A DNA stretch of 64,000 nucleotides from an uncultured Gammaproteobacteria bacterium. Lineage in GTDB: Bacteria > Patescibacteriota > Patescibacteriia > S139-126. The stretch is from assembly GCA_964493305.1 (NCBI GenBank), contig CAZBLW010000002.1, forward strand, positions 142,812-206,811, written 5' to 3'. The position numbers and the translations under genes are program-made. Positions 6,502 to 23,327 of this stretch are shown here, one piece after another. The notes under the pieces are model-generated. The model ran no database searches, had not been told where the DNA came from, and worked only from the letters and a program-made list of their open reading frames with translations. Position 1 is the first letter of the stretch, and the number at the start of each line of letters is the position of its first letter.

Positions 6502-6502
6502 T

Positions 6503-7943: not shown

Positions 7944-7944
7944 A

Positions 7945-7972: not shown

Positions 7973-7978
7973 AGATAT

Positions 7979-8958: not shown

Positions 8959-10027
8959 TGCCAGCCACTAACCATGTTTCCGTGCTTCCAGTGCCTTTAA
9001 TATCTACTCCTTTATTTTTTTCTTCCATATATTTAGGAAAATGTTTAGCTTTTTCGGCAATATGTTTATCGCCTGAGCTAAAATCTTCACCATAATATCG
9101 ATTGTCTTTTATTAATTCAGCGGCACTAGCTAAATATAATTCGAATTTTTGTCTTTTTCCTTTCATTATTAACCAATTTTCATCCAGTGTATATTTTATA
9201 CTTGAGGTGGGATGAAAGAATTGAGAGATTTCTTCATATATAGGATATTGAATAGTATAATCGGAAAAGGACGGCTTTCTTTGAACACTTGCATTAGAAT
9301 ATAGTTCCTTCCATTTTTTCCATTCAATACGAGGAATCAGGTTCTCTTCATCAATTTTGCATTGCGACAAGTCTTTTGGAAAAGCGCTACCAGAGAAAAT
9401 AAAAGTTCTCCATTTTAATAAATCAACAATATTTTGACTGAGTTCAAAATATTTTTTATATTTTTCCCCATCTCCCTCAAGCTCTTTTATATCCACCAAT
9501 AAGTCGATGCTGTTTTTATCTATCTTGTTTTTTGAAATAAAATCGGCAATGTCGCTATTTAATTTAGTTAAATCAGAAAAATCTGAACATACTAATCGTA
9601 AGCAAAGACCGCTTTTTATTTCATTGGCCAATGAGCAGACTGTGTCTTTTATCTCAGCATCATCATTTAAATGAACAACTGGAATAAAGATAGCCTGTTT
9701 TTTATTACCTGCCATTAAAATTGATTTTATGCTATCAATTTTTAGTTCGGTGGTGAACAATAAACTAAAATCAACAAAAATAGGACTCTTACCCCAAACT
9801 TCAATTATTCTATCCGGGATCAAGGGTAGTAGTTTTTTGAATTTTGTTACAACGCTCTCCAAAGTATCCTGGGGTTTTTGTTTCGGCATAACAAATTGGA
9901 TCAGTGGGGTAATATTTTTTTTATTTTCCTCAGCCAAACTCTCTAAAGCTCCTTGTTCGGCTCGTTTCCATTTCAATATTGGTATGTAGTGTTTCGAATT
10001 AAACATATTATTTAGTCCATTTTTCAT
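8909..10027 (-). CDS. Hypothetical protein, third gene of the higB / XRE-ImmA operon (possibly Beta-protein/sce7725-like)
   Basis: 372-aa ORF whose start overlaps the stop of the upstream peptidase gene by 20 bp. No confident motif. Its size and its adjacency to the PD-(D/E)xK protein resemble the sce7725/sce7726 pair, but that match is from memory. Confidence 0.35.
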   Translation of the reverse strand: MKNGLNNMFNSKHYIPILKWKRAEQGALESLAEENKKNITPLIQFVMPKQKPQDTLESVVTKFKKLLPLIPDRIIEVWGKSPIFVDFSLLFTTELKIDSIKSILMAGNKKQAIFIPVVHLNDDAEIKDTVCSLANEIKSGLCLRLVCSDFSDLTKLNSDIADFISKNKIDKNSIDLLVDIKELEGDGEKYKKYFELSQNIVDLLKWRTFIFSGSAFPKDLSQCKIDEENLIPRIEWKKWKELYSNASVQRKPSFSDYTIQYPIYEEISQFFHPTSSIKYTLDENWLIMKGKRQKFELYLASAAELIKDNRYYGEDFSSGDKHIAEKAKHFPKYMEEKNKGVDIKGTGSTETWLVAGINHHMTVAATQIANLS

Positions 10028-11240
10028 CAGGAAAGTAATTTCTTACTTTAGCCTCGTTGATAATTTTATTAAGATAAACGTATTTGTTGCCTTTGTGTCT
10101 AATTTGACCAGCAATAATGGCAACATGCACCCCCAGTTCTTTAGCGAGGCTATTTGCCGCCATTGAAGACGGAATTAGTCTTGCTGGACTGATTTCCCAT
10201 TTAGCTTTAGGCAACAACGATTCTTCGGCCAAGAAATCTGCCTCTTTTTCTTTTTCATCCAAATCAACTGGAGTTGTTTCTAATTCGTCATAGAACAAAC
10301 TAACATCTTGATTGTAGTGCAATGAAATATGAGCCAATTCGTGCATTAATGTAAACCAGAAATTATCTAGGCGGTCATATCTTAAAGTTAATCCAATAAT
10401 AGGATTTTCTTTGTTGACTAGAATCGCGGCTCCGTCTAAATACGTTTTAGAAAAATGAGGTTCGACCACCAAAATAATACCGATATCCTTAAGGTGTTTT
10501 TGCGCTAAAATAACCCCACCTTCTTTAGAACTTAATTTTACAAATTCTTGCATAAAATTAAGATCGACGGTGCCATCTTTGTATTTTTTTGTAGCTTTTA
10601 TTTTTTTAGCTTTTTGAATTACGCGATTTGACCAAGCGATTAACGCTCTTTTATCTGTAAGAGGAGACGATCTATAGTTTGATTTACGTAGCATTACTGC
10701 CATTTGTGGCTGAGCGCCAATTGAAGAAAAGAAATCTTTAAGCAAATCTAGTTTGCTAGATTTTTTAAGTGATTTATCACCAAAGTAGCCACGAGATTCC
10801 ATTTCTGTGACCAAACGATTATCCCAACCTTGATATTCGGAATTACTTTCTATCTCAGGTTTTCTTATTAAGACTTTTGCTGGAATTCCAAGCCCAACTT
10901 CTAAAGCCCTTACCATTTCTAGGGTGAGTGGACGTTTGCCTGAAAGTATTTCGGAGACTCTTCCTCTGCTTCCAATATATGGTATTAAGTCGGCAGGTTT
11001 AAGATCAGCTTGCTCCATTCTAAATTTAATTGCATCAATAGGATTAGGAAACGTTTCTGGCAAAGTGCGGGATTCATAGTCTTGAACGAGAGCGCTAAGC
11101 AAAGAAAGTTGTTCGCCTTCATCAGAATTAGGATCGGGGTCATGGCTTAATAGCACTTTGATTAAATCAAGCGCTTCTTTGTAGTCTGATTCAGTTTTTA
11201 TAAATTTAATTTTGCTCATATTTTTTAATTTAAATTCCAT
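10008..11240 (-). CDS. HigA-like XRE-family HTH fused to an ImmA/IrrE-family zinc metallopeptidase
   Basis: N-terminal HigA-type antitoxin HTH. C-terminal HEXXH (LMHELAHISLH) of the ImmA/IrrE (DUF955) peptidases. Overlaps the higB stop by 16 bp. Confidence 0.7.
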   Translation of the reverse strand: MEFKLKNMSKIKFIKTESDYKEALDLIKVLLSHDPDPNSDEGEQLSLLSALVQDYESRTLPETFPNPIDAIKFRMEQADLKPADLIPYIGSRGRVSEILSGKRPLTLEMVRALEVGLGIPAKVLIRKPEIESNSEYQGWDNRLVTEMESRGYFGDKSLKKSSKLDLLKDFFSSIGAQPQMAVMLRKSNYRSSPLTDKRALIAWSNRVIQKAKKIKATKKYKDGTVDLNFMQEFVKLSSKEGGVILAQKHLKDIGIILVVEPHFSKTYLDGAAILVNKENPIIGLTLRYDRLDNFWFTLMHELAHISLHYNQDVSLFYDELETTPVDLDEKEKEADFLAEESLLPKAKWEISPARLIPSSMAANSLAKELGVHVAIIAGQIRHKGNKYVYLNKIINEAKVRNYFPDEKWTK

Positions 11241-11512
11241 TTATCATATTCTTTATGAGTACCAATTTTTTCAACTAAAATTATCTTATTTTTATAATTG
11301 ACCGTGGTCAGCAACCTATACTTATTCCAACAAAAATTAAATACAACTTGCAGACCACCGACGAAGCTTGCCTTAGGATACCTCGACTTTAATTGGTGGG
11401 GAGTATCCCATTGAGCTTCCTCAACTTCCGCTTCCCATGACTCAATACTAGGCTTAGCATCGGCGTGTCTAGCTTTAAAATCGTGCAGTGTTGTTTTTCC
11501 TAGTAACTTCAT
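11225..11512 (-). CDS. higB: HigB-family type II toxin (RelE/ParE superfamily mRNA interferase)
   Basis: C-terminal ...VNYKNKIILVEKIGTHKEYDKW resembles the E. coli HigB/YgjN signature (...CYIREVMTHKEYD). 95 aa. First gene of the operon. Confidence 0.6.
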   Translation of the reverse strand: MKLLGKTTLHDFKARHADAKPSIESWEAEVEEAQWDTPHQLKSRYPKASFVGGLQVVFNFCWNKYRLLTTVNYKNKIILVEKIGTHKEYDKWNLN

Positions 11513-11595
11513 GTTTATTAATAATTACATTATGATATGCTCCCATATTGGGAATGATATACCATGTAATTAAATAAGTCAATAGGTTGCCCCAA

Positions 11596-11625
11596 AAATA
11601 CAAAATAACGCCGATACTGGCGTTA
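11596..11625 (-). terminator. Bidirectional rho-independent terminator ending the R-M operon
   Basis: aataacgcc-gatact-ggcgttatt hairpin flanked by A/T runs. Confidence 0.55.
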
Positions 11626-11654
11626 TTTTGTATAAAATTAACTGAATTTTTAGA

Positions 11655-12224
11655 TTATATAAACTTTATTCCGCTCCTCTTTAACTCATTTCTTATCTCA
11701 AGATAATCAGGCATCATCTTGGCGACCAAATTCCAAAACTTTTGTGAATGATTAAACTCTTTCAAGTGACAAAGCTCATGGACGATAATGTAATCGGCCA
11801 ACCTTTCGGGAAGCAGAGCAATTTTATAGTTAAAATTCAAATTACCTTTTCTTGAACAGCTACCCCAGCGAGTCTTCTGATTTTTAATATTAATCTTGTT
11901 GAATTTAAAGCCGTAAGTTTTGTTGAAATATTCAATTCGTTTTTCAGCCAAAGCCAACGCCTGATCTTTATATTCCGCGTAATCTTTTTTTGTACCTTTC
12001 GCAAACACCTGTCCAGAAATACTTTTAAAATAATCCAACTTATCAAGTATCCACTGCGATTTTCTAATTATGAATTGCTCAATGATATTCTCATTCATAT
12101 TCCGCGGAGCAGTTACCACAAAATTACCATCGCAATAGATAGCCAATCTCATTCGTCGAGCTCGCTTGCTCACCTTAAGGGTGTATTCTACTTTCTTTTT
12201 ATGTAGCTCGATTTTCTTCTTCAT
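11655..12224 (-). CDS. DUF45/YgjP-family (M48-like, WLM) zinc metallohydrolase
   Basis: HEXXH motif IVHELCHLKEFNHS. This family is commonly encoded next to type I hsdR genes. Gene start abuts the hsdR stop. Confidence 0.7.
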   Translation of the reverse strand: MKKKIELHKKKVEYTLKVSKRARRMRLAIYCDGNFVVTAPRNMNENIIEQFIIRKSQWILDKLDYFKSISGQVFAKGTKKDYAEYKDQALALAEKRIEYFNKTYGFKFNKINIKNQKTRWGSCSRKGNLNFNYKIALLPERLADYIIVHELCHLKEFNHSQKFWNLVAKMMPDYLEIRNELKRSGIKFI

Positions 12225-12226
12225 AA

Positions 12227-15139
12227 TTAAAATCGCTTAATCACTACATCCACTAATCTATTAAGATATTTGTGGAAATCAGAAACTTTTATTTTATCTT
12301 TGTAGTCTTTGAGAATTAATTCTTGCAGAGTTCGTTTTGCTTCTTTCAAAAATTCTTCTCTCTTAGATGAATCTTGCCAGTTTTCATCGAGAACATCTTC
12401 AAGTCGTGCGGCCATTTCTTTTACAAATTCCTTAACAATATCCTTATCAGATTCGCTGATAAATTCATCAGAGATTACAAATAGGCCGTATTCGCGGAGA
12501 GTGTAGCCCAATTCTTTAGCTTCTTCGGTCTTTGTCTTTATATCGTTTAGAAGTTCATAGTAGCGCTTTATTCTTTCTGCCAAATCAATCTGGTGCTTTT
12601 CAAATTCAACACGGATCGCGATAAGTCGCTCACTAAATTTCTTAAATGCCGGATGAGTATCAATGTTAATTGAAATCTCACGCTTTAACATCTTTTCAAG
12701 ATTAAGAGCCTTCTCTTCTTCGGGAAGTTTATCAAGCTTATTCAAAGTAGCTAAGTCGTGGATATTTAGTTCTCGGAAGTTTTTAGTGATACCTTCGTAG
12801 TCAATCTTCTGTTGAATTAAGCTCTTTATTTTCTCTCCGTATTCAGCAAGAGAAAAGGCGTCTACATCATCAATTTGGAATTCTTTGACGAACGCTAAAT
12901 AAAAACTGGTGATCCATTCAAACTTGCGTAGATATTCCATCAAGAATGGATCGGGTGAAAGAATCTCAAAAAGCATTTTTAGTCTGCCATATTTGTCTTT
13001 GAAGTATTGCTGTTTGCTTTGATTTTCAATAAATATCTTCAAGCATCGGCGTAAATTATCGATTGACGGATCTTCAATATTAACCCCGACGAACAATTCC
13101 ATTATTTCGCCAATAACTTTGGAGAATTCTTCTTTAAGGCGGTTGATATCCACCATCGCACTATCAACCACACTCTCATCAAAATTAAGAGCGTCGTAAA
13201 GATTTTTAGTCACGCCGTAGTAATCAATAATCTTGCCGCATCCTTTGTTTGGAAATACTCGATTTGTACGGGCGATCGCTTGAAGTAGGTTGTGATCACG
13301 AAGCGGTTTGTCCAAATACATCACTTGTTCAACTGGAGCATCAAAACCAGTTAAAAGCATGTCGCAGACAAGTAAGAATTTAAGTGGATGATTTGGATCT
13401 TTGAATTGATCAATAATTTTCTCTCGCTTCTGTTTATTAGTATTATATTTTTTCAAATCGTCGCTTTCGCTGTTCGGATCGCCTGGGGAGTAGACAACCT
13501 CTAACCATTCAGCAGGGACAAGCTTATCAAAAAGTTGTTTGTATTTAGCTGTGGCTTCGCGGTCATAACAAACCACTTGAGCCTTGAATCCGTTTGGCAA
13601 AACATAAAGCTTGTAATGCTCAATAATATCTTGAGCAACCGCCTCCATTCTTTTATCTAACTTAACAAGAGCTTCTTTTTTGCCGTATTTTTTAGTGAGT
13701 AATTCTTTTTGCTTGTCATTCAAGTCAACAGTTAATTCGTTGAATTGCTTGTCTACTTTTTCCTCATCAATAAAAAATTTGGAGAGACGAGCTTCGTATG
13801 TAACCGGCAAAGTAGCACCATCATCAATAGCCTGCTGAATAGAATAGTAATCAAGATATCGTTCGCCCTCTTCGCCAAAGTTTCTGTGAGTATTGAGGGT
13901 TAGCTTATCAATCGGCGTTCCTGTAAACCCAAAGAAGAATGCATCTTTAAAAGCATTACGCATCTTAATGGCCGAAATGCCTTCGTTATCTCGGTGGGCT
14001 TCATCAGAAAGCACAATAACATTGCCATCAATATTTTCTATATCTTCCAATTCGCTAAATTTCTGAATGGTTGAAATAAAGATACCTCGGTCGGCTCCTT
14101 TGATTTTCTTTTCAAGGTCTTTGCGTGATTCTATTCTGACGAGATTTTGTCCGCCCCAGCTTTCAAATTCTTCGTACACCTGATCATCAAGATCAATACG
14201 GTCAATCAAAATAAACACCTTAGGATTTTTTAGTTCTGGATTATAGCGAAGTTTCCAAGCAGTGAAAAACATTGTTAAGGTTTTACCAGATCCCTGAGTG
14301 TGCCAAATCAAACCTTTCTTTCTCTCGCCATCCTGAACACGAGCCACTATTTTATTGGCCGCGTAAAATTGCTGGTATCTAGTGATTTTCTTTGTGACTC
14401 CATCTTTCTTTTTCTCAAAAACTATAAAGTTTTTAATAAGATCAAGAATCTGCTTTTGATCCAGCAAAAAGAAAAGCGTGGAATCAAGTTCTTCTTCAAA
14501 TTTCTTCTCTTTTACCTGAGGGTCTTCACGCCACGCAAGGAAGTACTGTTTTGGGGAATAAGTCGTTCCATAAACGGTTTTAAGGCCATCGGTGGCGATA
14601 TTTAGACAGTTGGGTAGGAATAACTTAGGTGCTACTTTCTCATATCGCTTTAGCTGGTCAATAGCGTTCTCGAAACTGACACTGCTTGAAGCGGTGGGGC
14701 TTTTGGCCTCTATGTCACAAACCGGCAGACCATTAAGGAAAATCATCACATCAGGTCGAATGTTTTCAGTTACCCCTTCAAAATAGAATTGATTGGTAAC
14801 AACAAAGTGATTATTTTCAGGATTATCAAAATCAACAATCTTATAGTCACGGAAGTTGCCAGTGTTTGGATCTTTCAAATTGATACCATTTCGCGTCGCG
14901 AGCAAGAAAGCTTCATTTGTATCAAGCTTCTTAACTTCGCGCACCACACTTTGTGCAACAGTATCATCAACATCGTTTATTTTCTTAACTGCTTCTAAGA
15001 GATGGGTGGTGATAATAAACTCGGTTTCAAAAGCGCGAAGTTTGGAAAATTCTTCGGCCGGAATGTATTCATAGCCGAGCTTTTCTCGTATGAATTTTAT
15101 TATGTGATATTCAATTGTGTATTGTTCGTTAAATTTCAT
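12227..15139 (-). CDS. hsdR: Type I restriction enzyme R subunit (HsdR)
   Basis: SF2 helicase motifs HTQGSGKT (Walker A), DEAHR and QAIARTNR. 970 aa, typical HsdR size. Confidence 0.9.
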   Translation of the reverse strand: MKFNEQYTIEYHIIKFIREKLGYEYIPAEEFSKLRAFETEFIITTHLLEAVKKINDVDDTVAQSVVREVKKLDTNEAFLLATRNGINLKDPNTGNFRDYKIVDFDNPENNHFVVTNQFYFEGVTENIRPDVMIFLNGLPVCDIEAKSPTASSSVSFENAIDQLKRYEKVAPKLFLPNCLNIATDGLKTVYGTTYSPKQYFLAWREDPQVKEKKFEEELDSTLFFLLDQKQILDLIKNFIVFEKKKDGVTKKITRYQQFYAANKIVARVQDGERKKGLIWHTQGSGKTLTMFFTAWKLRYNPELKNPKVFILIDRIDLDDQVYEEFESWGGQNLVRIESRKDLEKKIKGADRGIFISTIQKFSELEDIENIDGNVIVLSDEAHRDNEGISAIKMRNAFKDAFFFGFTGTPIDKLTLNTHRNFGEEGERYLDYYSIQQAIDDGATLPVTYEARLSKFFIDEEKVDKQFNELTVDLNDKQKELLTKKYGKKEALVKLDKRMEAVAQDIIEHYKLYVLPNGFKAQVVCYDREATAKYKQLFDKLVPAEWLEVVYSPGDPNSESDDLKKYNTNKQKREKIIDQFKDPNHPLKFLLVCDMLLTGFDAPVEQVMYLDKPLRDHNLLQAIARTNRVFPNKGCGKIIDYYGVTKNLYDALNFDESVVDSAMVDINRLKEEFSKVIGEIMELFVGVNIEDPSIDNLRRCLKIFIENQSKQQYFKDKYGRLKMLFEILSPDPFLMEYLRKFEWITSFYLAFVKEFQIDDVDAFSLAEYGEKIKSLIQQKIDYEGITKNFRELNIHDLATLNKLDKLPEEEKALNLEKMLKREISINIDTHPAFKKFSERLIAIRVEFEKHQIDLAERIKRYYELLNDIKTKTEEAKELGYTLREYGLFVISDEFISESDKDIVKEFVKEMAARLEDVLDENWQDSSKREEFLKEAKRTLQELILKDYKDKIKVSDFHKYLNRLVDVVIKRF

Positions 15140-17322
15140 ATATTACTAATTCCTTCTAATTTCTTATAATGAAGCGGATCCAAGATTTTTACCAACTGAA
15201 ATGCTTCTTGAATTCGTTGATGGGCATTCGTTAATATTGAGTCATCAATTGATTCGGGATCGATGAATCCATGGGACCCATGATTGATAAAACGATACAT
15301 TTCCAGAGGATTAGCGCTAAAGGGGTTAGTCTCTTTTTCAGTAGTTTTAGTGGCTGACGAATATGCGCTTTCAAGAGTAGACCGCAAATCTCCAGTCGTA
15401 GAAAATTTGAATTCCAGAAAAGTTTCTAACCAGCGACGTAATAAATTAACAACCAAATGAGCATCTTCTAGATCACATGTATCCTTGTGTTTTGCCAAGA
15501 CGCTAAAAACATAATAATAATCTGACCTATGATCTCTGAGTAAGGGGTGTATGGCTTCAATAATGCATCCATTGCTTGTAGCCGCGAAACTAAACAATCT
15601 AACATCGCCACTTCCTATTTTTGATCTGAAATGCTCTCTTAGGTGGCCTAAAAAGTCTAAGTTGTGTGTTAATACAAAATATTGTCGCCCAGCATGATTT
15701 TTTATTTCATTTACAATAATTGAAAAAATTTGAAATATAGCTTGCTTATCTAAACTTGATACAGGATCATCAATCACAACAACACCGTCATCGGGAAGTT
15801 TATTTTGAGCATCGTTAATCGAATAAATGAAATAAGCCAGTGCAATAAAATTCTTCTCTCCTTCACTTAAACTAGAAAACGCACAGTTTGTTTCATCTCT
15901 TTTTAAGGCATATCCCTTACCATCATCAGCATCGGTAATTTCTATTTTTCTATAGGGGAATACGACTTTAAAGAGACGATTTAATGCTTGAGCTGGTTCA
16001 AGTGTATTTTTTACTTTTTGCTTTAATTCTTTAACTTGTGTATCTAATTTAGAAATCTCAAGAGTTATGGCTGACCTTTGATCTGTGGCTTTTGCAAAAA
16101 GCTCCTTTGCTCTGGCATATTCTTCGTATTGCTGTGCAACGAAATGTGTCTCAATAGCATAAGCAACAGAGGTAGCATCAGTTGAAGTTGGGTTTGTCAT
16201 TGGGGTTAATTTTGTTATATCGAGAGTATATGCAGTTTTTATCACGGAGATGGAAGTTCTCTTCTCTTTCAGGATCACTGCTAAGGCATCAAATATAGCT
16301 CTAACAAAATCAACATTTTGCTGTTGAGATTTGGATAATGAATCTAATTTAGCAAAACTGGTGGTATATCCTTCAATAATCTTTAAATATTCATCAATTG
16401 AGTTTATTGTCTTAACGACTTCGTCTGAAAAATGCTTGATTAGCTCTTCTGTGTTTGAAATATCAGAATTACAAAATAAACATTTCGCGAGTGGTTTTTC
16501 TTGATTAAAATGCAAACTGACACCCTGTTTAATCCAGCCAGTTTGGGTTTCATTTAGATCATCTATTCTTTTTGAGTGGACTTGTACTGGTTGTGATCCT
16601 AACCCATTATTTATATTTTCAATATTATCGATAAGCCATTTAGCGGCATTAGCTATTTCATTGTCATTTTTCGCCAACCTTTCAGTATTCATTAACTGAC
16701 CTTTTAATGAATCAACGTCTGCGCGTATTAATTCGGCGTGACTTTTAATTTTTCCATCAGCTATCTTTTTCTCTATATCTGCGATCCGCTTCTCAAAATC
16801 AGTTTTTGAATAACTGGCATAAGTACCAGCACCCACGAGTTGTTTCTTTATACTGTTTATTCCACCGACTTCTTTAATTACAACTGCGGTAGCGCTAGCA
16901 ATGTCATCGTGTTTTGTTGGTAGAATTATTTTATTTAATTCATCCTTTTTATCTTTTAATTTTTGTTCTTCAGCGTCGTAGCTCACCGCTTCTTTGCCAG
17001 CAAAAAAGATATAAGGAATTGTTGAACTTCCACGCAACGTTTCTTCAATATAGTTGCCATTAAAAATTCTTATATTGTTTTTTGTTAAATTTAAATCACA
17101 GGTATCGGTAATTTGCGAGGATTCAGTTTTAATCTTAAAGGTACAGCTATTTTCAATAATTCCATTTTCAAGACTACGCAACACATTTGAAAAAGTAGTT
17201 TTACCTGATCCGTTCCATCCAAAAAGTAAATTAACCCCATCAGCAAAATCAACCAAGGTTGGACCCCAGGAATAATTATGAAATCTTGCATGATTAAGTT
17301 TTTCGACTTTTTGAATCTTCAT
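15136..17322 (-). CDS. RloC/PrrC-like ABC-type ATPase (candidate anticodon nuclease) embedded in the type I R-M operon
   Basis: Walker A GWNGSGKTT, Walker B/D-loop VVVIDDPVSSLD and H-loop THN. A ~450-aa coiled-coil-like insert contains a CxxC motif (CLFCNSD), which is zinc-hook-like as in RloC. Its position between hsdS and hsdR matches prr locus architecture. C-terminal R-x3-E and His residues are consistent with an ACNase domain. Confidence 0.5.
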   Translation of the reverse strand: MKIQKVEKLNHARFHNYSWGPTLVDFADGVNLLFGWNGSGKTTFSNVLRSLENGIIENSCTFKIKTESSQITDTCDLNLTKNNIRIFNGNYIEETLRGSSTIPYIFFAGKEAVSYDAEEQKLKDKKDELNKIILPTKHDDIASATAVVIKEVGGINSIKKQLVGAGTYASYSKTDFEKRIADIEKKIADGKIKSHAELIRADVDSLKGQLMNTERLAKNDNEIANAAKWLIDNIENINNGLGSQPVQVHSKRIDDLNETQTGWIKQGVSLHFNQEKPLAKCLFCNSDISNTEELIKHFSDEVVKTINSIDEYLKIIEGYTTSFAKLDSLSKSQQQNVDFVRAIFDALAVILKEKRTSISVIKTAYTLDITKLTPMTNPTSTDATSVAYAIETHFVAQQYEEYARAKELFAKATDQRSAITLEISKLDTQVKELKQKVKNTLEPAQALNRLFKVVFPYRKIEITDADDGKGYALKRDETNCAFSSLSEGEKNFIALAYFIYSINDAQNKLPDDGVVVIDDPVSSLDKQAIFQIFSIIVNEIKNHAGRQYFVLTHNLDFLGHLREHFRSKIGSGDVRLFSFAATSNGCIIEAIHPLLRDHRSDYYYVFSVLAKHKDTCDLEDAHLVVNLLRRWLETFLEFKFSTTGDLRSTLESAYSSATKTTEKETNPFSANPLEMYRFINHGSHGFIDPESIDDSILTNAHQRIQEAFQLVKILDPLHYKKLEGISNI

Positions 17323-17330
17323 ATGCTTTT

Positions 17331-18539
17331 CTATTTGTTTGGTTTTACCCTAACCTTACCGCTCAACAAATCCTGCATCAGACCTTTTTTTAGCTTTATT
17401 AATGTCTCTTTGTACTTGGTATTAACTGAAATTTTTTCATCTGTTGAAGAAAGAATATCAGCAATCTTTTTTTGTTCGTTTTTCGGTGGCACTTTGATCA
17501 AAAGTGGATTTAATTTTTCTAGATTTATATTTTTCTGAGCAGATTGGGTGGAAATACTATTCAAGTATTCCTTTTGTGTTCGGAGATAATATTCTAGATA
17601 TATGGGATCAATTATTTCTGAGGGAGTAATACCTATCAAGCTATCTGGAAAGCATGAATCAAATTGTAATATTCCAGTGTCACCAATATTTGCCGCGATA
17701 GTAATAACTATTGTACCTTTCTTAAATAATCTGCTAACAGATAACCCTTTTTCATTTAGAGTTTGAGTATATGAAGAAATTTTGCCATTTGAATTAACAA
17801 CATCTCCTGTTTGAATAAAAGGAATATTGCCCCCATAAAATTCAGGAGCATTACGTGGTCGATGAGAAAACTTTCCACGCTCTACAGTCGCAATTTCAGA
17901 TAATTTTAAAATGTTCCATTCCTCGGGAATGGTGCCAATTGCTGTCTTTTTAAAATTTTTATGCCCAATACCCCTTATAAGGAGATCCTGCATCAATCCA
18001 TTTTTTAACTCTGTTGTTTGTTCTATGATGGAGTCTATTTTTTTAACCTCATCATCAACAGATGTTAATATCTCTACAATTCTCTTTTGCTCAGTCAAAG
18101 ACGGTTCCAAAACCTCGTACATTTTTCGTATCACACTTGGGTGTGCTTTTGTTTGATAGTCGAACTTAAAAAAAGAGTGCTCCCAGTCCAAAAGAAAAAA
18201 TAAGTACTTGTATATCAATCTGTCTTTTTTAAGAATACGTAATATTCCACTAACATTGGTCACTGAAAACTTATGTTTTGGTCGGTAAAAAAAATTACCA
18301 CCTCCATCAACTGACCACGTTATTAACTCTTCATCAAACATGAAAGGGTTGTATCTTCCAAACAAGGCTTCCTTATGAACTGAAGAAGAATATATGGGAT
18401 TATCACCTGGATTATTCCGAATATCATTTTTTGAAATTACATTTCCACGCGTTAATTCAATAACACCCGATGCAATATAATCATCGAGAAGCGAATGCCT
18501 CCAGTCATTGGGTATTGTTTTTTGATCTATTGCTCGCAT
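17331..18539 (-). CDS. hsdS: Type I R-M specificity subunit (HsdS)
   Basis: Two TRD halves each followed by the conserved LMQDLL repeat regions (KNGLMQDLLIRG, KKGLMQDLLSGKV). Confidence 0.85.
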   Translation of the reverse strand: MRAIDQKTIPNDWRHSLLDDYIASGVIELTRGNVISKNDIRNNPGDNPIYSSSVHKEALFGRYNPFMFDEELITWSVDGGGNFFYRPKHKFSVTNVSGILRILKKDRLIYKYLFFLLDWEHSFFKFDYQTKAHPSVIRKMYEVLEPSLTEQKRIVEILTSVDDEVKKIDSIIEQTTELKNGLMQDLLIRGIGHKNFKKTAIGTIPEEWNILKLSEIATVERGKFSHRPRNAPEFYGGNIPFIQTGDVVNSNGKISSYTQTLNEKGLSVSRLFKKGTIVITIAANIGDTGILQFDSCFPDSLIGITPSEIIDPIYLEYYLRTQKEYLNSISTQSAQKNINLEKLNPLLIKVPPKNEQKKIADILSSTDEKISVNTKYKETLIKLKKGLMQDLLSGKVRVKPNK

Positions 18540-18540
18540 G

Positions 18541-20286
18541 TTAATAATTTAATTCAGAAAGAAAACCGTCTAATTTCTTATTTATTGATTCGCGCTCTTT
18601 TTCAAGAGATTTCAGTTCCGTCCATACAGTTTTTACGTTTATAAATTCTTTATCTTCTGATGAATCAATATACTGACTTATGTTTAAGTTGTAATCATTT
18701 TCAGTGATTTCCTTTATATCAACTACCCGAGTATATTTTTCAATATCGGAATATCCATCGTATGCTTTTACGATTTTATTTATATCTTGTGGTCGTAAAG
18801 AATTCTGATTTTTTCCCTCAAGAAAATCTTTTTCTGCATCAATAATCAAAACCTTATTCTTTTTGTTTTCTGGCTTGTTTTTATTGAGGATAAGAATAGC
18901 CGCTGGGATGCCCGTGCCATAGAAAAGTTTAGCTGGTAAAGCAATAACAGCTTCAATTAAATCATTCTTAAGAATTTGCTCACGAATACGACCTTCGGCA
19001 CCACTACGGAATAAAACACCATGCGGAAGAACAATGCCAGCTCGGCCGTTTACATTCATCGATTTAATAATATGCAAAACAAAAGCATAGTCGGCATTTT
19101 TTTCTGGAGGCATATCATAACCTTCAAGTCGACCATATTTATTTGTCTTAAATATTTCTGATTCCCAGTCCTTGATCGAGTAGGGTGGATTTGCAACGCA
19201 GATATCAAATGTTTGCAAATTGCCATTTTGTGTTAGAAATTGAGGATTCGCGATTGTATCGCCACGACGAATATCAGCACTATCAAGACCGTGCAAAAAC
19301 ATATTAATTTTTGCAATAGCAAAAGTACTGATATTTAATTCTTGTCCGTAGAGATAAAGTGTTTTAGCAATTTTCTCGCCAGATTTTTGCTTTAGATAGT
19401 CGTATGCTTCAAGCAGGAAACCGCCTGATCCAGCCGTTGGGTCATAAATGTGATCTTTTTGATGAGGCTTTAAAATTCCGATGATAACTTTTTCAACTTC
19501 ACGAGGTGTGTAGAACTCTCCACCTTTTTTCCCTGCATCTGCGGCGAATTGTTTAATGAGATATTCATAGGCATCACCTAAAAGATCGGAACTGATATAG
19601 GTGTTACCAAAATTATATTGAGAAAAATGATTGATAAGTCTTTGAAGTGTTTCGTTTGGAAAACGATCTCTGTTTGAGAAATCAAGATCATCAAAAATTT
19701 TGTCCAGTTTCGGACTATTGGCATTAGCAAGTTTTTCAAAAATATCATTTAACTTTTGACCGATACTTTCCGCTTGTTCGGTAATAACATTCCATCTACA
19801 ATCTTTTGGAACTTGAAAACGGTGGTTATAGTCAGCGCCGGCAATTGTCTTATCGTTATACTCTTTCATTATCGACTCGTACTCTTCGTCCCACACATCA
19901 CTCATTCTTTTATAAAACAAAAGCCCGAAGATGTATTTTTTATAATCCGAGCTGTCTATTTTTCCTCGAAGGATGTCGGCACTCTTCCAAAGAAAAGCTT
20001 CAAGCTGAGGTAAGGTAAGTTTGCTACCCATTTTATCCACGATCGCTTGAATATCCTGTGGGCGATATTTGCGATCTTTGCGTGGACCAACTCTAAGGGG
20101 AACAAGTGTGCCGTCCTTTTCCCAGTTTCTTAAAGTATCTTGGTGGATGCTAAAAATCTCTGCTACCTGACCGATAGAGAGTAACTCTGGCATTCCTTTG
20201 AGTTTTTCTTGGATGTCTTTTCTCATATTGTTTAATATAAGTCTATCAGACTCCAAATATAAAGTCAAATGTTCATAGGTTTTCAT
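18541..20286 (-). CDS. hsdM: Type I R-M methyltransferase subunit (HsdM) with N-terminal excisionase/MerR-type HTH extension
   Basis: HsdM N-terminal domain (LEAFLWKSADILRG) and N6-adenine methyltransferase motif NPPY (VANPPYS). An extra ~85-aa N-terminus has an HTH_17-like sequence (LSIGQVAEIFSIHQDTLRNWEKDGTLVPLRVG). Confidence 0.9.
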   Translation of the reverse strand: MKTYEHLTLYLESDRLILNNMRKDIQEKLKGMPELLSIGQVAEIFSIHQDTLRNWEKDGTLVPLRVGPRKDRKYRPQDIQAIVDKMGSKLTLPQLEAFLWKSADILRGKIDSSDYKKYIFGLLFYKRMSDVWDEEYESIMKEYNDKTIAGADYNHRFQVPKDCRWNVITEQAESIGQKLNDIFEKLANANSPKLDKIFDDLDFSNRDRFPNETLQRLINHFSQYNFGNTYISSDLLGDAYEYLIKQFAADAGKKGGEFYTPREVEKVIIGILKPHQKDHIYDPTAGSGGFLLEAYDYLKQKSGEKIAKTLYLYGQELNISTFAIAKINMFLHGLDSADIRRGDTIANPQFLTQNGNLQTFDICVANPPYSIKDWESEIFKTNKYGRLEGYDMPPEKNADYAFVLHIIKSMNVNGRAGIVLPHGVLFRSGAEGRIREQILKNDLIEAVIALPAKLFYGTGIPAAILILNKNKPENKKNKVLIIDAEKDFLEGKNQNSLRPQDINKIVKAYDGYSDIEKYTRVVDIKEITENDYNLNISQYIDSSEDKEFINVKTVWTELKSLEKERESINKKLDGFLSELNY

Positions 20287-20346
20287 AGGTCTGTATAGTA
20301 GCTTAACCCTGAAAATACGGGTAATTTACTTGTCTACAGGTTATCT

Positions 20347-20396
20347 ACTCGGGACGCTCTGGACTCCTTTGGGGATTGGCGTCATTCATTAGATAT
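20347..20396 (+). repeat. Conserved sequence upstream of recombinase copy 2 (second copy of 2457..2507)
   Basis: Identical 22-mer actcgggacgctctggactcct at 20347..20368. Confidence 0.6.
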
Positions 20397-21722
20397 ATGA
20401 AAATAACAGCCCCAAAGGGCTATGAGGTGGCCCAAATACAGCCTCAAACGGTCAAAGTTAGGTATTGCCTGTATGCCCGTAAATCAACAGAATCGGAGGA
20501 AAGACAGGTACTTTCCATTGATTCGCAGATAAAAGAGATGCTTCAGCTCGCTGAAAGAGAGAATTTGGAGGTGGTTTGTATGAAGCGTGAGAGTCATTCA
20601 GCCAAGGAAACTGGACAAAGACCGGTCTTTAACGAGATCATTGAAGAAATACGAGTCAAGAAGTATAACGCTATCCTCACCTGGGCACCCGATCGTATTT
20701 CAAGAAATGCCGGGGACTTAGGAAAGATTGTGGATTTGATGGATGCAGGACTTCTACAAGAAATCAGAACCTACGGACAAAAGTTTTCAAACAATCCAAA
20801 TGAAAAATTCTTGCTGATGATTCTTGGATCACAGGCAAAACTTGAAAATGATAACAGAGGCGTAAATGTAAAACGCGGACTACGAACAAGAGTGGAAATG
20901 GGATTGTGGCCAGGAGTGGCACCGCTCGGATATTTGAATCAAAACTTAATGGATAAGAAATGCCAAGTGATTATTGATCCGCAACGTGCGTCGACAATTA
21001 AGAAAATGTTTGAGAAAGTGGCGTATGAACATTACTCAGGTAGAAAACTATATAATTGGTTACGCCATGAACTTAATTTCTATACCCGAGGAAACAAACC
21101 ATTAACACTGAGTGGAATATATAGAATCTTGGATAATCACTTCTATTACGGAACGTTTGAATCGCCGAAAGGTAGTGGTAATTGGTATCAAGGAAAACAC
21201 GCACCGATCATAACACAAGAATTATTTGAAAAAGCTCAAGCGCAACTAAAACGAGATAATATACAGCGCGAAAATAAAGAATTTGCCTTTACTAAACTAT
21301 TCACTTGCGGATACTGTGGAAGTGGAATATCTGCCGAAGAAAAATGGAAACAACTCAAAGATGGAACGCACGCAAAATACATCTACTACTCTTGTAGTAG
21401 AGCGAGAGATAGAAACTGTAAAAATCACTATATACGAGAAGAAGATTTAATAACCGAATTACTTAAAATACTGGATAAAGTAAACATTAATGAGTTGGGT
21501 ATGAGACAAAAATTGGAAGATGAGATAGCGAGATTCAATATTTTTCAAAGATCGGTACTTGGTGCAACGGAAAAGATTAAAAATAACCAAGATACTGATA
21601 TACGAAACTTCGCCAAGTATATTTTGAAAGAAGGTACAGTTGGCGAGAAAAGAGAGCTACTGGCGAATCTGAGATCGAGAATAATTTACAAAGACAAACA
21701 ACTTACGCTGATTGAGGAATAA
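20397..21722 (+). CDS. Large serine recombinase (paralogue of 2508..3848)
   Basis: The same domain set as copy 1: resolvase domain, recombinase domain and zinc ribbon. About 80% aa identity. ATG start chosen by alignment with copy 1. The ORF-track start at 20376 is a TTG. Confidence 0.85.
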   Translation: MKITAPKGYEVAQIQPQTVKVRYCLYARKSTESEERQVLSIDSQIKEMLQLAERENLEVVCMKRESHSAKETGQRPVFNEIIEEIRVKKYNAILTWAPDRISRNAGDLGKIVDLMDAGLLQEIRTYGQKFSNNPNEKFLLMILGSQAKLENDNRGVNVKRGLRTRVEMGLWPGVAPLGYLNQNLMDKKCQVIIDPQRASTIKKMFEKVAYEHYSGRKLYNWLRHELNFYTRGNKPLTLSGIYRILDNHFYYGTFESPKGSGNWYQGKHAPIITQELFEKAQAQLKRDNIQRENKEFAFTKLFTCGYCGSGISAEEKWKQLKDGTHAKYIYYSCSRARDRNCKNHYIREEDLITELLKILDKVNINELGMRQKLEDEIARFNIFQRSVLGATEKIKNNQDTDIRNFAKYILKEGTVGEKRELLANLRSRIIYKDKQLTLIEE

Positions 21723-21761
21723 TAAAAATACACGAGTTGATCGTGTATTTTATTTAACTAT

Positions 21762-22229
21762 TTAGATATGTATAGCTTGCTTAATAGCTGATTCTAGTTC
21801 GCTTGGAACATCTGTTCCTATGCGATAAATTTTTCCATTTCTCATGATTATTTCTACCGCATCAAAACCAGAAACATTGTAAATACATATACGTGGCCAA
21901 AACCAAACCCTCAAACCCCAGCCGTAATACCAATGATTCTTTACTTGCTTGACTGATGCAATTTCACTTAATAGAAACTTTTTTCTAAAAAGTCCATAAC
22001 CAAATTTAATTCCAATATATTTTTCATCAATAGATACCGTTAGCGTTGTAACTGATGAAAGAGTAAACAAAATTAAAACCATTATGGCCGTAACGAGAAA
22101 ATTTGCGCCAGAATCAGTAGATGGTGGCTCAGATCTTACCGTATACTGAGCCCATGCAAAAAGAACCAGCACAGCTAATGTGACTATTATCATCAGGTAT
22201 CCAATTTGAGTGTGTTTATATGAAGTCAT
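21762..22229 (-). CDS. Hypothetical membrane protein (two TM + possible bacterial PH-like domain)
   Basis: ORF with two hydrophobic segments. No catalytic motifs. Confidence 0.35.
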   Translation of the reverse strand: MTSYKHTQIGYLMIIVTLAVLVLFAWAQYTVRSEPPSTDSGANFLVTAIMVLILFTLSSVTTLTVSIDEKYIGIKFGYGLFRKKFLLSEIASVKQVKNHWYYGWGLRVWFWPRICIYNVSGFDAVEIIMRNGKIYRIGTDVPSELESAIKQAIHI

Positions 22230-22232
22230 ATT

Positions 22233-23042
22233 TTAATTAATTGTCTGCACTATCCGATCAACAGTGGAATCAATATCAAAAGCTTCTCTTTCATTGGTGC
22301 ATGCTTTTCTTGGTTCCTCGTCGTAATTATTACAATTAGGATATTGTAGAGTAAAATTAATTTTTATAAGTTTGCCATTCTTAGCGATAGTGTAAACATA
22401 GGAGGAATAAACACTACCGGCCGCACCCTCGTTTTTTATGTTTACACAATAAGTTCTGTCATCAACCATCCTCTCCGAAGTTATATCCGACATACTACTT
22501 ACTTCCTGTGGTGTAGTTTTACATGAATATGTTCCAGTCTCAATTTTTATACTCGGTGGCCATTCCGTAACGCTTACATATTTCGCCAATAACTCTTTCG
22601 GATATTGAAACGTTATGCCCTGATCATTAGTGGTCGTTGTCCATAGATTATGGTTGGAATTATTGTTGTTTTCAGTAATAGTCCAGAGCGAATAATAGCG
22701 ACTGTAATATCTGTGAGTAGCAACGGCGGTTTGTCCTGTTGTAGACTTAAAAAAATAACCGGAACCCATTTGCTCGGTGAATTCGTATCCCTTGGCTTTC
22801 ATAAAATCATGTATCACAGTCCCGTTTTTACTTTCGGTCATAAATTTGCTATCCGAACCCGACAACTTCACGATATCACTATCGCTAAATTTTAATTTAA
22901 CTATGCCCTTAATCTGTGGCCAAGGATTGCCTTCTTGAAAAATTACTGAGGAATATAAAGATAGAAAAATACCTGCAATTAAAATGATTGCGGAGACAAG
23001 CAATAATATCTTTTTATTTTTTGAGGAATGTTCAAAAATCAT
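22233..23042 (-). CDS. Hypothetical membrane-anchored/secreted protein
   Basis: N-terminal hydrophobic anchor. N/T/S-rich and Cys-containing extracytoplasmic region. Confidence 0.35.
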   Translation of the reverse strand: MIFEHSSKNKKILLLVSAIILIAGIFLSLYSSVIFQEGNPWPQIKGIVKLKFSDSDIVKLSGSDSKFMTESKNGTVIHDFMKAKGYEFTEQMGSGYFFKSTTGQTAVATHRYYSRYYSLWTITENNNNSNHNLWTTTTNDQGITFQYPKELLAKYVSVTEWPPSIKIETGTYSCKTTPQEVSSMSDITSERMVDDRTYCVNIKNEGAAGSVYSSYVYTIAKNGKLIKINFTLQYPNCNNYDEEPRKACTNEREAFDIDSTVDRIVQTIN

Positions 23043-23047
23043 AGTGA

Positions 23048-23230: not shown

Positions 23231-23327
23231 TCACTTATATTATATCTCAAAAATTGACTTTATTAAAGAACCACTTTTTTACAAAAATAAAAATAGCGAT
23301 CACAAAGTCGTTGTTTTTATTTACAAT

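What the first reader, a model, noticed from the sequence alone, without database searches (positions are those of the whole stretch)
11655..20286. prr-like type I R-M operon: hsdM-hsdS-[728-aa RloC/PrrC-like ABC ATPase with CxxC insert]-hsdR-DUF45 metallohydrolase
Five minus-strand genes are packed with overlaps of 4 bp or less or gaps of 8 bp or less. A large ABC-type ATPase lies between hsdS and hsdR. It has Walker A GWNGSGKTT, Walker B VVVIDDPVSSLD and H-loop THN.

This is the position PrrC occupies in the E. coli prr locus. Its ~450-aa insert between the ATPase halves, with a CxxC (CLFCNSD), resembles the Rad50-like zinc-hook/coiled-coil of RloC anticodon nucleases. A C-terminal region with an R-x3-E and a conserved His would fit an ACNase domain.

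Such tRNA-suicide modules wired to type I R-M systems are rare. Finding one in a Patescibacteria-like genome would be notable. A DUF45/YgjP HEXXH hydrolase is co-transcribed at the 3' end.
Basis: partly seen in the sequence, partly recalled or inferred. Interest (0 to 1): 0.62.

Follow-up and report, generated by a model that had tools for sequence, protein, structure and literature searches.

The report
RloC tRNA nuclease inside restriction operon
A candidate-phyla-radiation (Patescibacteria) bacterium carries, on a mobile island, an ordinary type I restriction-modification operon with an RloC-family "suicide" tRNA-cutting enzyme between its S and R genes. This arrangement has been described in other bacteria, so it is a clean new example, not a new kind of system.

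Summary
Five tightly packed minus-strand genes (11655-20286) encode HsdM, HsdS, a 728-aa ABC ATPase, HsdR and a YgjP-like HExxH protein. A terminator closes the unit.

The 728-aa protein is a full-length AAA_13 protein (E 1e-86) and meets every sequence criterion published for RloC:
- Size and intact ABC motifs.
- A CxFC zinc-hook motif whose surroundings match the characterised Geobacillus RloC.
- A C-terminal R629-x3-E633-x50-S683-H684 triad.

The CxxC, Arg and Ser-His positions are conserved in 154-156 of 156 relatives; the Glu position is E in 142 and D in 12. IMG already names homologs "wobble nucleotide-excising tRNase".

It is RloC, not PrrC. It carries the coiled-coil insert, and the PrrC model matches only its ATPase part.

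The hsdM-hsdS-rloC-hsdR order recurs in 7 of 80 sampled genomes and in prophage contigs. Close orthologs also occur alone or in a type III-like operon. RloC-like genes are common in Patescibacteria.

The operon is cargo of a ~19 kb element integrated at tRNA-Ser, next to a PD-Lambda-2 system.

Verdict: a new member of a known kind, of low to moderate interest. Nuclease activity and coupling to the R-M enzyme are inferred, not shown.

The parts
18541..20286 (-). hsdM: type I R-M methyltransferase with an extra N-terminal MerR/HTH_17 helix-turn-helix (residues ~35-85). An alternative start at M21 is possible.
   Evidence: N6_Mtase E 8.5e-110, HsdM_N 1.2e-26, MerR_1 5e-8. TIGR00497 274 bits, above its cutoff. 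EcoR124II M E 7e-70 versus EcoKI M 3e-26.
17331..18539 (-). hsdS: specificity subunit with two target-recognition domains.
   Evidence: Methylase_S E 6.9e-37, two stretches. PADLOC Specificity_I 4.8e-54.
15136..17322 (-). rloC-like gene: 728-aa Rad50-like ABC ATPase with a zinc-hook insert and a C-terminal anticodon-nuclease-type domain.
   Evidence: AAA_13 E 1e-86, full length. PDC-S06 9e-96. Homologs are named 'wobble nucleotide-excising tRNase' by IMG. AF2 model pLDDT 86.4.
17194..17220 (-). Walker A, GWNGSGKTT (residues 35-43; K41).
   Evidence: Read directly. G35, N37, G40, K41 and T42 are invariant in A1. K41 is present in 154/156.
16471..16482 (-). Zinc-hook motif C281-L-F-C284.
   Evidence: C281 and C284 are present in 156/156 relatives and F283 in 145/156. 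The surrounding W263..G267..LH..CxFC..L294..H297-F298 matches the Geobacillus kaustophilus RloC row of Suppl. Fig. S1 of PMC2610378.
15748..15870 (-). ABC signature LSEGEKN (485-491) and Walker B/D-loop VVVIDDPVSSLD (514-525).
   Evidence: S486, G488, E489, D518, D519 and D525 are invariant or nearly so.
15664..15666 (-). H-loop (switch) histidine H553.
   Evidence: H553 is present in 156/156.
15139..15555 (-). C-terminal predicted anticodon-nuclease domain (residues ~590-728). Its triad is R629 (nt 15436-15438), E633 (nt 15424-15426) and S683-H684 (H684 at nt 15271-15273).
   Evidence: The pattern R-x3-E-x50-(S)H fits the published RloC definition R-X3-E-X36-52-H with Ser often before His. 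Counts among 156 relatives: R 155, E 142 plus D 12, S-H 154. The domain model has pLDDT 89.8. A profile of this domain finds 1,919 cluster representatives, almost always at the C-terminus of ~720-790-aa proteins.
12227..15139 (-). hsdR: restriction/translocase subunit. Its start overlaps the rloC stop by 4 nt (ATGA).
   Evidence: TIGR00348 553 bits. HSDR_N, SWI2_SNF2 and T1R_D3-like domains. The closest solved relative is EcoR124I HsdR, E 9e-36.
11655..12224 (-). YgjP-like (formerly DUF45) HExxH metallohydrolase, the last gene of the operon.
   Evidence: PF01863 E 2e-47. Weak similarity to the minimal metallopeptidases proabylysin and projannalysin. Conserved after hsdR in L089, L090 and L072 only.
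11594..11629 (-). Intrinsic-terminator-like hairpin plus T-run (AAAATAACGCC-AGTATC-GGCGTTATTTTGTATTTTT) that closes the operon. A TTGACT-17-TATCAT promoter-like site for the next unit follows at 11582-11554.
   Evidence: Read directly. The promoter-like site is listed.
20287..20375 (.). Divergent intergenic region between hsdM and the serine recombinase. Positions 20340-20390 are 82% identical to the region upstream of the second recombinase copy (2450-2500).
3986..23392 (.). Context: a ~19.4 kb integrative element that carries the operon as cargo. It is bounded by a degenerate tRNA-Ser 3' fragment (3943-3985) and the intact tRNA-Ser(GCT) gene (23393-23486), with a large serine recombinase at 20376-21722.

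Best explanation
The locus is a complete type I restriction-modification operon. An RloC-family anticodon nuclease gene sits between hsdS and hsdR and is translationally coupled to hsdR.

The R-M enzyme is the first line of defence: it methylates host DNA and cuts unmodified incoming DNA.

The 728-aa protein is a Rad50-like ABC ATPase. Its two head halves are separated by a helical insert carrying a CxFC zinc hook. Its C-terminal helical domain carries the Arg-Glu-(Ser)His catalytic triad of the PrrC/RloC tRNases.

By analogy with the characterised Geobacillus RloC, the nuclease is held off by the zinc hook and ATPase. It is released when the ATPase head senses DNA ends or damage, or possibly loss of the R-M complex. 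It then cuts tRNA anticodon loops, stops translation and aborts the infection.

The operon ends with a YgjP-like metallohydrolase of unknown role. It travels as cargo of a tRNA-Ser-integrated element, next to a PD-Lambda-2 system.

Shown here: gene identities, motif and triad conservation, operon packing, recurrence of the architecture and mobility. Inferred: tRNase activity, its trigger, and any physical coupling to HsdMSR.
For: Family assignment:
- Full-length AAA_13 match, E 1e-86. PADLOC PDC-S06 E 9e-96.
- Homologs are named 'wobble nucleotide-excising tRNase' by IMG.

Published RloC criteria (PMC2610378), each met:
- Size 658-897 aa: this protein is 728 aa.
- ABC motifs are intact.
- The CxxC is invariant in 156/156 relatives, and its context matches the Geobacillus RloC sequence.
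- The triad R-x3-E-x50-SH has R in 155/156, E or D in 154/156 and SH in 154/156.

Structure:
- The AF2 model (pLDDT 86.4) has 40-residue helices at 203-242 and 399-438 and a beta-knuckle at the CxxC.
- Top Foldseek hits are SMC, Rad50, Lamassu LmuB and AriA heads with coiled coils.
- Heptad signal flanks the CxxC at 191-243, 283-367 and 399-455.

Operon and context:
- Gaps of at most 8 nt, an ATGA overlap with hsdR, and a terminator after ygjP.
- The same five-gene cassette occurs in orthologous loci L089 (90% identity) and L090 (76%).
- The M-S-RloC-R order occurs in 7 of 80 unrelated genomes and in 4 viral/prophage contigs.

The mechanism of the family comes from PMC3458546.
Against: - No experiment has been done on this protein or on any Patescibacteria homolog.
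- The C-terminal domain alone gives no hit to the PADLOC PrrC model.
- The C-terminal domain model has no significant Foldseek match in the PDB, HEPN folds included: best E 0.27, and Las1 only at E 1.0. The nuclease assignment therefore rests on the conserved motif pattern and the family annotation.
- Close orthologs occur without any R-M genes: P0011 (77%), P0028, P0059 and P0020. Functional coupling to this R-M system is therefore not obligatory.
- The hook geometry (CxxC at a coiled-coil apex) could not be inspected, and the insert is ~80 aa shorter than in Geobacillus RloC.
Confidence: 0.72

Rival explanations
1. PrrC-style external control. The nuclease is physically masked by the HsdMSR complex encoded around it. 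It is unleashed when a phage anti-restriction protein inactivates that complex, and not by RloC's own DNA-end-sensing switch.
For: - The gene sits exactly where prrC sits, between hsdS and hsdR, and overlaps the hsdR start by ATGA, which favours co-production.
- The cassette is conserved at 76-90% identity.
- HsdR and HsdM are nearer to the type IC enzyme EcoR124I than to EcoKI. prrC is always linked to type Ic systems.
Against: - The protein retains the invariant zinc hook and full ATPase, which form RloC's internal switch.
- Orthologs at 62-77% identity are encoded alone, so an external silencer is not needed for viability.
- The PrrC model matches only the ATPase C-lobe.
Confidence: 0.3
2. 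Functionally independent neighbour. The rloC gene is a self-contained defence gene that landed in the operon by cassette shuffling within a defence island. It shares only transcription with the R-M genes.
For: - Close orthologs sit in quite different contexts: alone beside the same recombinase/SNase/ParB-MTase module (L082), in a type III-like operon (L087/L088), or next to PD-(D/E)xK and GIY-YIG genes (L091).
- An alternative order M-S-R-RloC also exists (L062, L066, L134, L135, L139, L140).
- RloC is known to spread without an external silencer.
Against: - The identical insertion point between hsdS and hsdR recurs in distant phyla and in prophage contigs.
- The gene is translationally coupled to hsdR here and in L089.
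Confidence: 0.3
3. Non-nuclease accessory. The protein is an SMC/Rad50-like DNA-binding ATPase that assists restriction or DNA-end handling. Its C-terminal domain is a regulatory or RNA-binding module without catalytic activity.
For: - Structural matches are to DNA-handling SMC, Rad50 and LmuB heads.
- The C-terminal domain has no significant structural match to known RNases.
- The HEPN-type Arg (R677) is only moderately conserved: R 85, K 29 and S 26 of 156.
Against: Near-invariance of exactly the three residues whose mutation abolishes nuclease activity in Geobacillus RloC, plus the preceding Ser. Such conservation across phyla is hard to explain without catalysis.
Confidence: 0.07
4. Member of another ABC-ATPase defence family (OLD/Gabija-like, AbiEii, PARIS AriA, Septu PtuA or MADS mad3) and not RloC.
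For: Weak hits to AriA (8e-12), mad3 (7e-14), AbiLi (1.5e-10), PtuA (2e-5) and AAA_21 (2.5e-8). AriA is the best sequence match in the PDB, E 8e-6.
Against: - All of these matches cover only generic ATPase segments and are 70-80 orders of magnitude weaker than AAA_13 and PDC-S06.
- No TOPRIM, HNH or partner gene is present.
- The hsd genes score far better against type I models than against MADS models.
Confidence: 0.02

Closest known systems
RloC (Geobacillus kaustophilus GkaRloC; Campylobacter jejuni rloC/E/G; Acinetobacter baylyi RloC)
   Same: - Size class: 728 aa, within the 658-897 aa range.
- ABC ATPase motifs.
- A helical insert with an invariant CxFC hook, in the same sequence context (W..G..LH..CxFC..L..HF).
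- The R-x3-E-x36-52-(S)H triad.
- Occasional embedding in type I or type III R-M loci, and carriage on mobile elements or prophages.
   Different: - Only ~25% identical to typical proteobacterial, archaeal and Firmicutes-type members. It belongs to a distinct Patescibacteria-centred subclade: hits at >=35% identity, then a gap down to 28%.
- The insert is ~80 aa shorter than in GkaRloC.
- It is linked in cis to a full hsd operon plus a YgjP-like gene, which is the minority situation for RloC.
- No biochemical data exist for it.
PrrC / EcoprrI (prr locus of E. coli CT196)
   Same: - Gene order hsdM-hsdS-ACNase-hsdR.
- An ABC NTPase plus a C-terminal Arg-Glu-His tRNase triad.
- The role of a translation-disabling backup to a type I R-M system.
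   Different: - PrrC is 341-416 aa, has no coiled-coil/zinc-hook insert and carries a PrrC box.
- PrrC nicks 5' of the wobble base and does not excise it.
- The PrrC HMM matches only residues 479-651 here (E 1.3e-9) and does not detect the C-terminal domain alone.
PADLOC candidate system PDC-S06
   Same: It is the best-scoring defence-database model: PDLC04894, E 9e-96, covering the protein to its C-terminus. It is a single-gene candidate made of AAA_13 ATPases.
   Different: PDC-S06 is an uncharacterised bioinformatic category. It does not state the RloC relationship or the R-M linkage.
Rad50/SbcC, SMC, Lamassu LmuB and PARIS AriA
   Same: The fold of the split ABC head with a helical or coiled-coil insert (Foldseek E 1e-7 to 1e-4). 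Rad50 also has a CxxC hook.
   Different: These proteins lack the C-terminal triad domain and work with separate nucleases (Mre11/SbcD, LmuA, AriB). Sequence similarity is limited to the P-loop, signature and Walker B regions.

Membership tests
RloC | [quoted passage not shown] | tested here: met
   728 aa. The range comes from PMC2610378.
RloC | Complete ABC ATPase motif set: Walker A, signature, Walker B/D-loop and switch His | tested here: met
   GWNGSGKTT, LSEGEKN, VVVIDDPVSSLD and TH553N are present. They are invariant or nearly so in 44 and in 156 relatives.
RloC | CxxC zinc-hook motif inside a largely helical insert that splits the ATPase domain | tested here: met
   C281 and C284 are present in 156/156. 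The context aligns with GkaRloC: '...EWVREGLGLHKGLECAFCGNKI....LDRHFT' against 'GWIKQGVSLHFNQEKPLAKCLFCNSDI....LIKHFS'. Helices flank the motif.
RloC | The insert folds into an antiparallel coiled coil with the hook at its apex | tested here: inconclusive
   AF2 secondary structure shows 40-residue helices at 203-242 and 399-438 plus shorter helices around the CxxC. A crude heptad score is elevated on both sides of the motif. Foldseek hits are SMC/Rad50 heads with coiled coils. Model coordinates and hook geometry could not be inspected.
RloC | C-terminal Arg-X3-Glu-X36-52-His triad, with Ser often before the His | tested here: met
   R629-x3-E633-x50-S683-H684. Counts among 156 relatives: R 155, E 142 plus D 12, S-H 154.
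RloC | Anticodon nuclease activity with wobble-nucleotide excision, controlled by Zn, ATP and DNA | not testable with these tools
   Biochemical property, known only for GkaRloC.
PrrC | 341-416 aa with an uninterrupted ABC NTPase domain and a PrrC box | tested here: not met
   The protein is 728 aa with a ~340-aa insert. The PrrC box was not examined.
PrrC | Sequence match to PrrC across the nuclease domain | tested here: not met
   The PADLOC PrrC model matches residues 479-651 only (E 1.3e-9). It gives no hit when the C-terminal 157 or 200 residues are scanned alone at E<=10.
PrrC | Gene located between hsdS and hsdR of a type Ic hsd locus | tested here: inconclusive
   The position is met. 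HsdR and HsdM are closer to EcoR124I/II (type IC) than to EcoKI, but the type I family was not formally assigned.
HEPN superfamily RNase domain | Helical fold with an Rx4-6H motif | tested here: inconclusive
Type I restriction-modification system | HsdM, HsdS (two TRDs) and HsdR (nuclease plus SF2 motor) encoded together | tested here: met
   TIGR00497 and TIGR00348 score above their curated cutoffs, and Methylase_S matches twice. PADLOC MTase_I, Specificity_I and REase_I also match.
OLD / AbiEii / PARIS-type ATPases | ATPase fused to or partnered with a TOPRIM or other nuclease; best profile match to those families | tested here: not met
   AAA_21 scores 2.5e-8 and AriA 8e-12, against AAA_13 at 1e-86. 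No TOPRIM domain and no partner gene are present.

The most novel reading that the evidence does not exclude
The conserved five-gene cassette (HTH-HsdM, HsdS, RloC, HsdR, YgjP-like protease) may be an integrated two-layer device. In this reading the RloC nuclease is guarded by the R-M complex as well as by its own zinc hook, and the YgjP-like metalloprotease is part of the switch, for example through HsdR turnover or restriction alleviation. The cassette would spread among Patescibacteria as cargo in a fixed 'bay' between the terminase genes and the serine recombinase of small elements that integrate at tRNA-Ser and lack structural genes. Those elements resemble phage satellites and have not, to my knowledge, been described for this group.
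Probability: 0.15. Interest if true: 0.55.

Novelty: new member of a known kind. Interest (0 to 1): 0.25.

Why it matters
The locus adds a well-preserved natural example of an RloC-type tRNA nuclease wired in cis to a complete type I R-M operon, in an ultra-small-genome lineage that cannot be cultured alone.

An old question from the Kaufmann laboratory remains open: does RloC respond to the state of an associated restriction enzyme, as PrrC does, or only to DNA damage? A compact, conserved and translationally coupled cassette like this one is a convenient construct for testing that in E. coli.

It also shows that Patescibacteria, often said to be poor in defence systems other than R-M, carry abortive-infection modules (RloC and PD-Lambda-2) on mobile islands.

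It does not reveal a new mechanism.

Tried and rejected
1. Sequence search of the PDB with the 728-aa protein found only generic P-loop matches to AriA and Rad50. No solved RloC or PrrC was found.
2. Foldseek of the separately modelled C-terminal domain (pLDDT 89.8) against the PDB gave only noise: Cys-loop receptors at E>0.2, and Las1 at E 1.0. The HEPN fold could be neither confirmed nor refuted.
4. Scanning the C-terminal 157 and 200 residues alone against PADLOC gave PDC-S06 only and no PrrC hit.
5. No full reference sequence of GkaRloC or EcoPrrC could be obtained. The HEPN paper's supplement held no alignments. Only the zinc-hook region of GkaRloC was recovered, from the 2008 supplement.
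6. Literature searches on a YgjP/DUF45 link to type I R-M returned nothing useful. The recollection that COG1451 is R-M-associated remains my own knowledge and is untested here.
7. MADS, PARIS, Septu, AbiL and OLD readings were considered and rejected on profile scores.
8. The idea that an RloC in Patescibacteria is unusual was rejected. Homologs occur in Buchananbacteria, Doudnabacteria, Pacebacteria, Nomurabacteria, Saccharibacteria and Absconditabacterales assemblies.
Full report
OBSERVATION. ORF listing reproduces the five minus-strand genes exactly as described: hsdM 18541-20286, hsdS 17331-18539, a 728-aa ORF 15136-17322, hsdR 12227-15139 and a 189-aa ORF 11655-12224. The junctions, read from the sequence, are a 1-nt gap, an 8-nt gap, a 4-nt ATGA overlap (rloC stop / hsdR start) and a 2-nt gap. 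Directly after the last stop codon lies a hairpin plus T-run (11594-11629). A promoter-like TTGACT-17-TATCAT follows for the next gene set. The five genes therefore form one delimited transcription unit.

GENE IDENTITIES. HsdM matches N6_Mtase at 8.5e-110 and TIGR00497 above its cutoff. HsdS matches Methylase_S twice. HsdR matches TIGR00348 at 553 bits, with HSDR_N, SWI2_SNF2 and T1R_D3-like domains. The last gene matches the YgjP-like family PF01863 at 2e-47. Among solved structures, HsdR is closest to EcoR124I (9e-36). HsdM is closer to EcoR124II M (7e-70) than to EcoKI M (3e-26). This leans towards the type IC branch without settling it.

THE 728-aa PROTEIN. It matches Pfam AAA_13 over essentially the whole model (positions 9-708 of 713, E 1e-86). 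Matches to SMC_N, AAA_21 (AbiEii-type) and ABC_tran are far weaker. In PADLOC the best model is the candidate single-gene system PDC-S06 (9e-96, reaching the C-terminus). PrrC matches only residues 479-651 (1.3e-9). AriA, mad3, AbiLi and PtuA give weak ATPase-only hits. No solved structure shares more than P-loop similarity. A database search found 285 homologs. A close group at 35-100% identity comes from Patescibacteria assemblies, and beyond a gap lies a large group at ~25% identity. IMG names many of these 'wobble nucleotide-excising tRNase', which is RloC. Members of the same 90% cluster are annotated from Candidatus Buchananbacteria.

TEST AGAINST THE PUBLISHED DEFINITION OF RloC. Davidov and Kaufmann (PMC2610378) define RloC by four features: size 658-897 aa; PrrC-like ABC motifs; a CxxC zinc hook in a helical insert that splits the ATPase; and a C-terminal Arg-X3-Glu-X36-52-His motif, often with Ser before the His. 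Mutating any triad residue abolishes nuclease activity and toxicity.
- In a 44-sequence alignment spanning 23-77% identity, the invariant columns include G35, N37, G40, K41 and T42 (Walker A), C281, F283 and C284, S486, G488 and E489, D518, D519 and D525, H553, N626, R629, and S683-H684. E633 is present in 43/44.
- The spacing is R629-x3-E633-x50-H684.
- Extending to 156 full-length relatives from genome and viral collections gives C281 156/156, C284 156/156, R629 155, E633 142 plus 12 Asp, and S683-H684 154. The exceptions are alignment gaps.
- The zinc-hook region of the experimentally characterised Geobacillus protein was recovered from the paper's Supplementary Fig. S1: '...LQEWVREGLGL HKGLECAFCGNKIDVSRWELDRHFTREV'. 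It aligns residue for residue with 'GWIKQGVSLHFNQEKPLAKCLFCNSDISNTEELIKHFSDEV' here. It shares every column that is invariant in my alignment: W263, G267, C281, F283, C284, L294, H297 and F298.
On sequence criteria the protein is an RloC.

STRUCTURE. An AlphaFold2 model built on the alignment is confident (pLDDT 86.4). It shows an N-terminal head lobe, then helices including two of 40 residues (203-242 and 399-438). The CxxC lies in a short beta-knuckle between helices. The C-terminal head lobe follows, and then a mostly helical C-terminal domain. Foldseek against the PDB returns SMC, Rad50, condensin, cohesin, Lamassu LmuB, AriA and retron PtuA heads with coiled coils (E 3e-7 to 1e-4). A simple heptad score is elevated on both sides of the CxxC: 191-243, 283-367, and 399-455 with z up to 4.3. 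I could not inspect coordinates, so whether the hook is at a coiled-coil apex is unresolved.

IS THE R-M LINKAGE SPECIAL? The name rloC means 'restriction-linked orf'. Eight of the 72 original orthologs lay in type I or type III loci. The HEPN survey lists PrrC/RloC as 'often found in R-M operon', with some members in prophages. My samples agree:
- Seven of 80 relatives from one-genome-per-species contigs have hsdM-(hsdS)-rloC-hsdR in that order and on one strand: L006, L008, L012, L020, L072, L076 and L079. They span Proteobacteria, Omnitrophica, Spirochaetia and Nitrospirota.
- Two more genome loci have M-S-R-RloC (L062, L066), and several have partial links.
- Four IMG/VR contigs have the prr-like order (L092, L093, L094, L114), and four have R-RloC.

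Within the close Patescibacteria clade the context varies:
- The identical five-gene cassette, including the HTH-bearing HsdM and the YgjP-like gene, occurs with orthologs of 90% and 76% identity (L089, L090).
- Orthologs of 77%, 66%, 62% and 42% identity stand without any R-M genes nearby.
- A 37% relative sits in a type III-like operon: an N6_N4 methylase, a ResIII helicase, RloC and a DUF2779 protein.
The architecture is recurrent but facultative, as the literature describes.

MOBILE CONTEXT. The operon lies between a large serine recombinase (20376-21722) and a set of phage-type genes:
- a ParB-methylase (5173-6501);
- a small-terminase-like HTH protein (6503-7021);
- a staphylococcal-nuclease homolog (6891-7943);
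- a P4 cII-like gene (8332-8958);
- a three-gene PD-Lambda-2 system (8909-11512).

A second, cargo-free copy of the module lies at 18-3848: methylase, TerS, TerL and recombinase. Its recombinase is 81% identical and its methylase 72% identical to the first copy. The ~110 bp after the first recombinase resemble the ~110 bp that abut the tRNA-Ser(GCT) gene at 23393-23486. The resemblance includes the first nucleotides of the tRNA 3' end. This indicates two related elements integrated in tandem at tRNA-Ser. The second element (~3986-23392) carries the defence cargo. The HsdR 90%-identity cluster has 54 members, mostly in Patescibacteria/Parcubacteria assemblies, which fits horizontal spread.

MECHANISM. 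The best-supported reading is that the type I enzyme restricts unmodified DNA. RloC is a co-expressed abortive-infection backup: a DNA-responsive Rad50-like ATPase with a zinc-hook switch that releases a tRNA anticodon nuclease. This was shown for Geobacillus RloC with ATP plus linear DNA, and with hook mutants. The trigger here is open; it could be DNA ends, loss of the R-M complex, or both. The ATGA coupling to hsdR and the prr-like position favour some cross-talk. The existence of solo orthologs shows that cross-talk is not required. The role of the YgjP-like hydrolase is unknown. It accompanies hsdR only in L072, L089 and L090 among the sampled R-M-linked loci.

COMPARISON AND VERDICT. The protein works like RloC and passes every sequence-level membership test for it. 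It fails the PrrC tests on size, insert and HMM match over the nuclease domain, although it occupies PrrC's genomic position. Membership of the HEPN fold is unconfirmed here. The finding is real and correctly interpreted, but it is a new member of a known kind. The protein family, its R-M linkage, its presence on mobile elements and its occurrence in Patescibacteria are all already visible in public annotation and literature. Interest is low to moderate. The most useful aspect is a compact conserved cassette in which cis-regulation of RloC by a type I enzyme could be tested.

Noticed in passing
window 8909-11512 (-): A complete three-gene PD-Lambda-2 defence system lies directly downstream of the operon, with its own promoter-like site. 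Gene A is a HigB-like toxin (95 aa, E 1e-35). Gene B is an HTH plus M78 peptidase (410 aa, E 1e-142). Gene C is a Beta_protein (372 aa, E 1e-39).
   Followed up: partly
window 1-23486: Two related integrative elements appear to sit in tandem at tRNA-Ser(GCT) (23393-23486). Each has a ParB-methylase, a TerS-like gene, (TerL) and a large serine recombinase; the recombinases are 81% identical. A degenerate tRNA 3' fragment at 3943-3985 marks the junction. No capsid or tail genes were seen, so the elements look satellite-like. The defence genes occupy the slot between the terminase genes and the recombinase. Relatives L089 and L090 have the same layout.
   Followed up: partly
window 8008-8130 (-): An Rfam LOOT RNA (RF03000, 71 bits against a gathering score of 46) lies inside the mobile element, between the staphylococcal-nuclease homolog and a P4 cII-like gene (8332-8958; PHROG 984, E 1e-36). 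Its role there is unknown.
   Followed up: no
window 20032-20184 (-), HsdM residues ~35-85: HsdM carries an extra N-terminal MerR/HTH_17-type helix-turn-helix, conserved in the orthologous cassettes L089 and L090. It may be a built-in controller of operon expression on entry into a new host. The solved HsdM relatives align only from residue ~90.
   Followed up: no
window 1-4000: GC content is 0.43, against ~0.35 for the rest of the island. This suggests the first element copy was acquired from a different background.
   Followed up: no
L087 3046-10718 and L088 645-8316: A 37%-identical RloC homolog is embedded in a type III-like operon: N6_N4 methylase(s), a ResIII/SWI2_SNF2 helicase (with an overlapping stop/start), RloC, and a DUF2779 protein. 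A serine recombinase follows.
   Followed up: no
L062, L066, L134, L135, L139, L140: A second recurrent architecture places the RloC-like gene after hsdR (hsdM-hsdS-hsdR-rloC) instead of before it. It occurs in both genome and viral contigs.
   Followed up: no
L082 7001-13673: A 77%-identical ortholog stands alone on the far side of the same recombinase/SNase/TerS-like/ParB-methylase module, with no hsd genes. This shows the gene is shuffled as an independent cassette around these elements.
   Followed up: partly
L002 5065-5627: A Candidatus Buchananbacteria genome holds only the first ~188 residues of a 76%-identical copy. It may be a truncated or disrupted rloC.
   Followed up: no
window 12227-15139 (HsdR cluster): The 90%-identity HsdR cluster has 54 members, against 8 for RloC. 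It includes bins labelled Methanoregula and Marinimicrobia. This points either to wide horizontal spread of the R-M genes without RloC, or to mis-binning.
   Followed up: no
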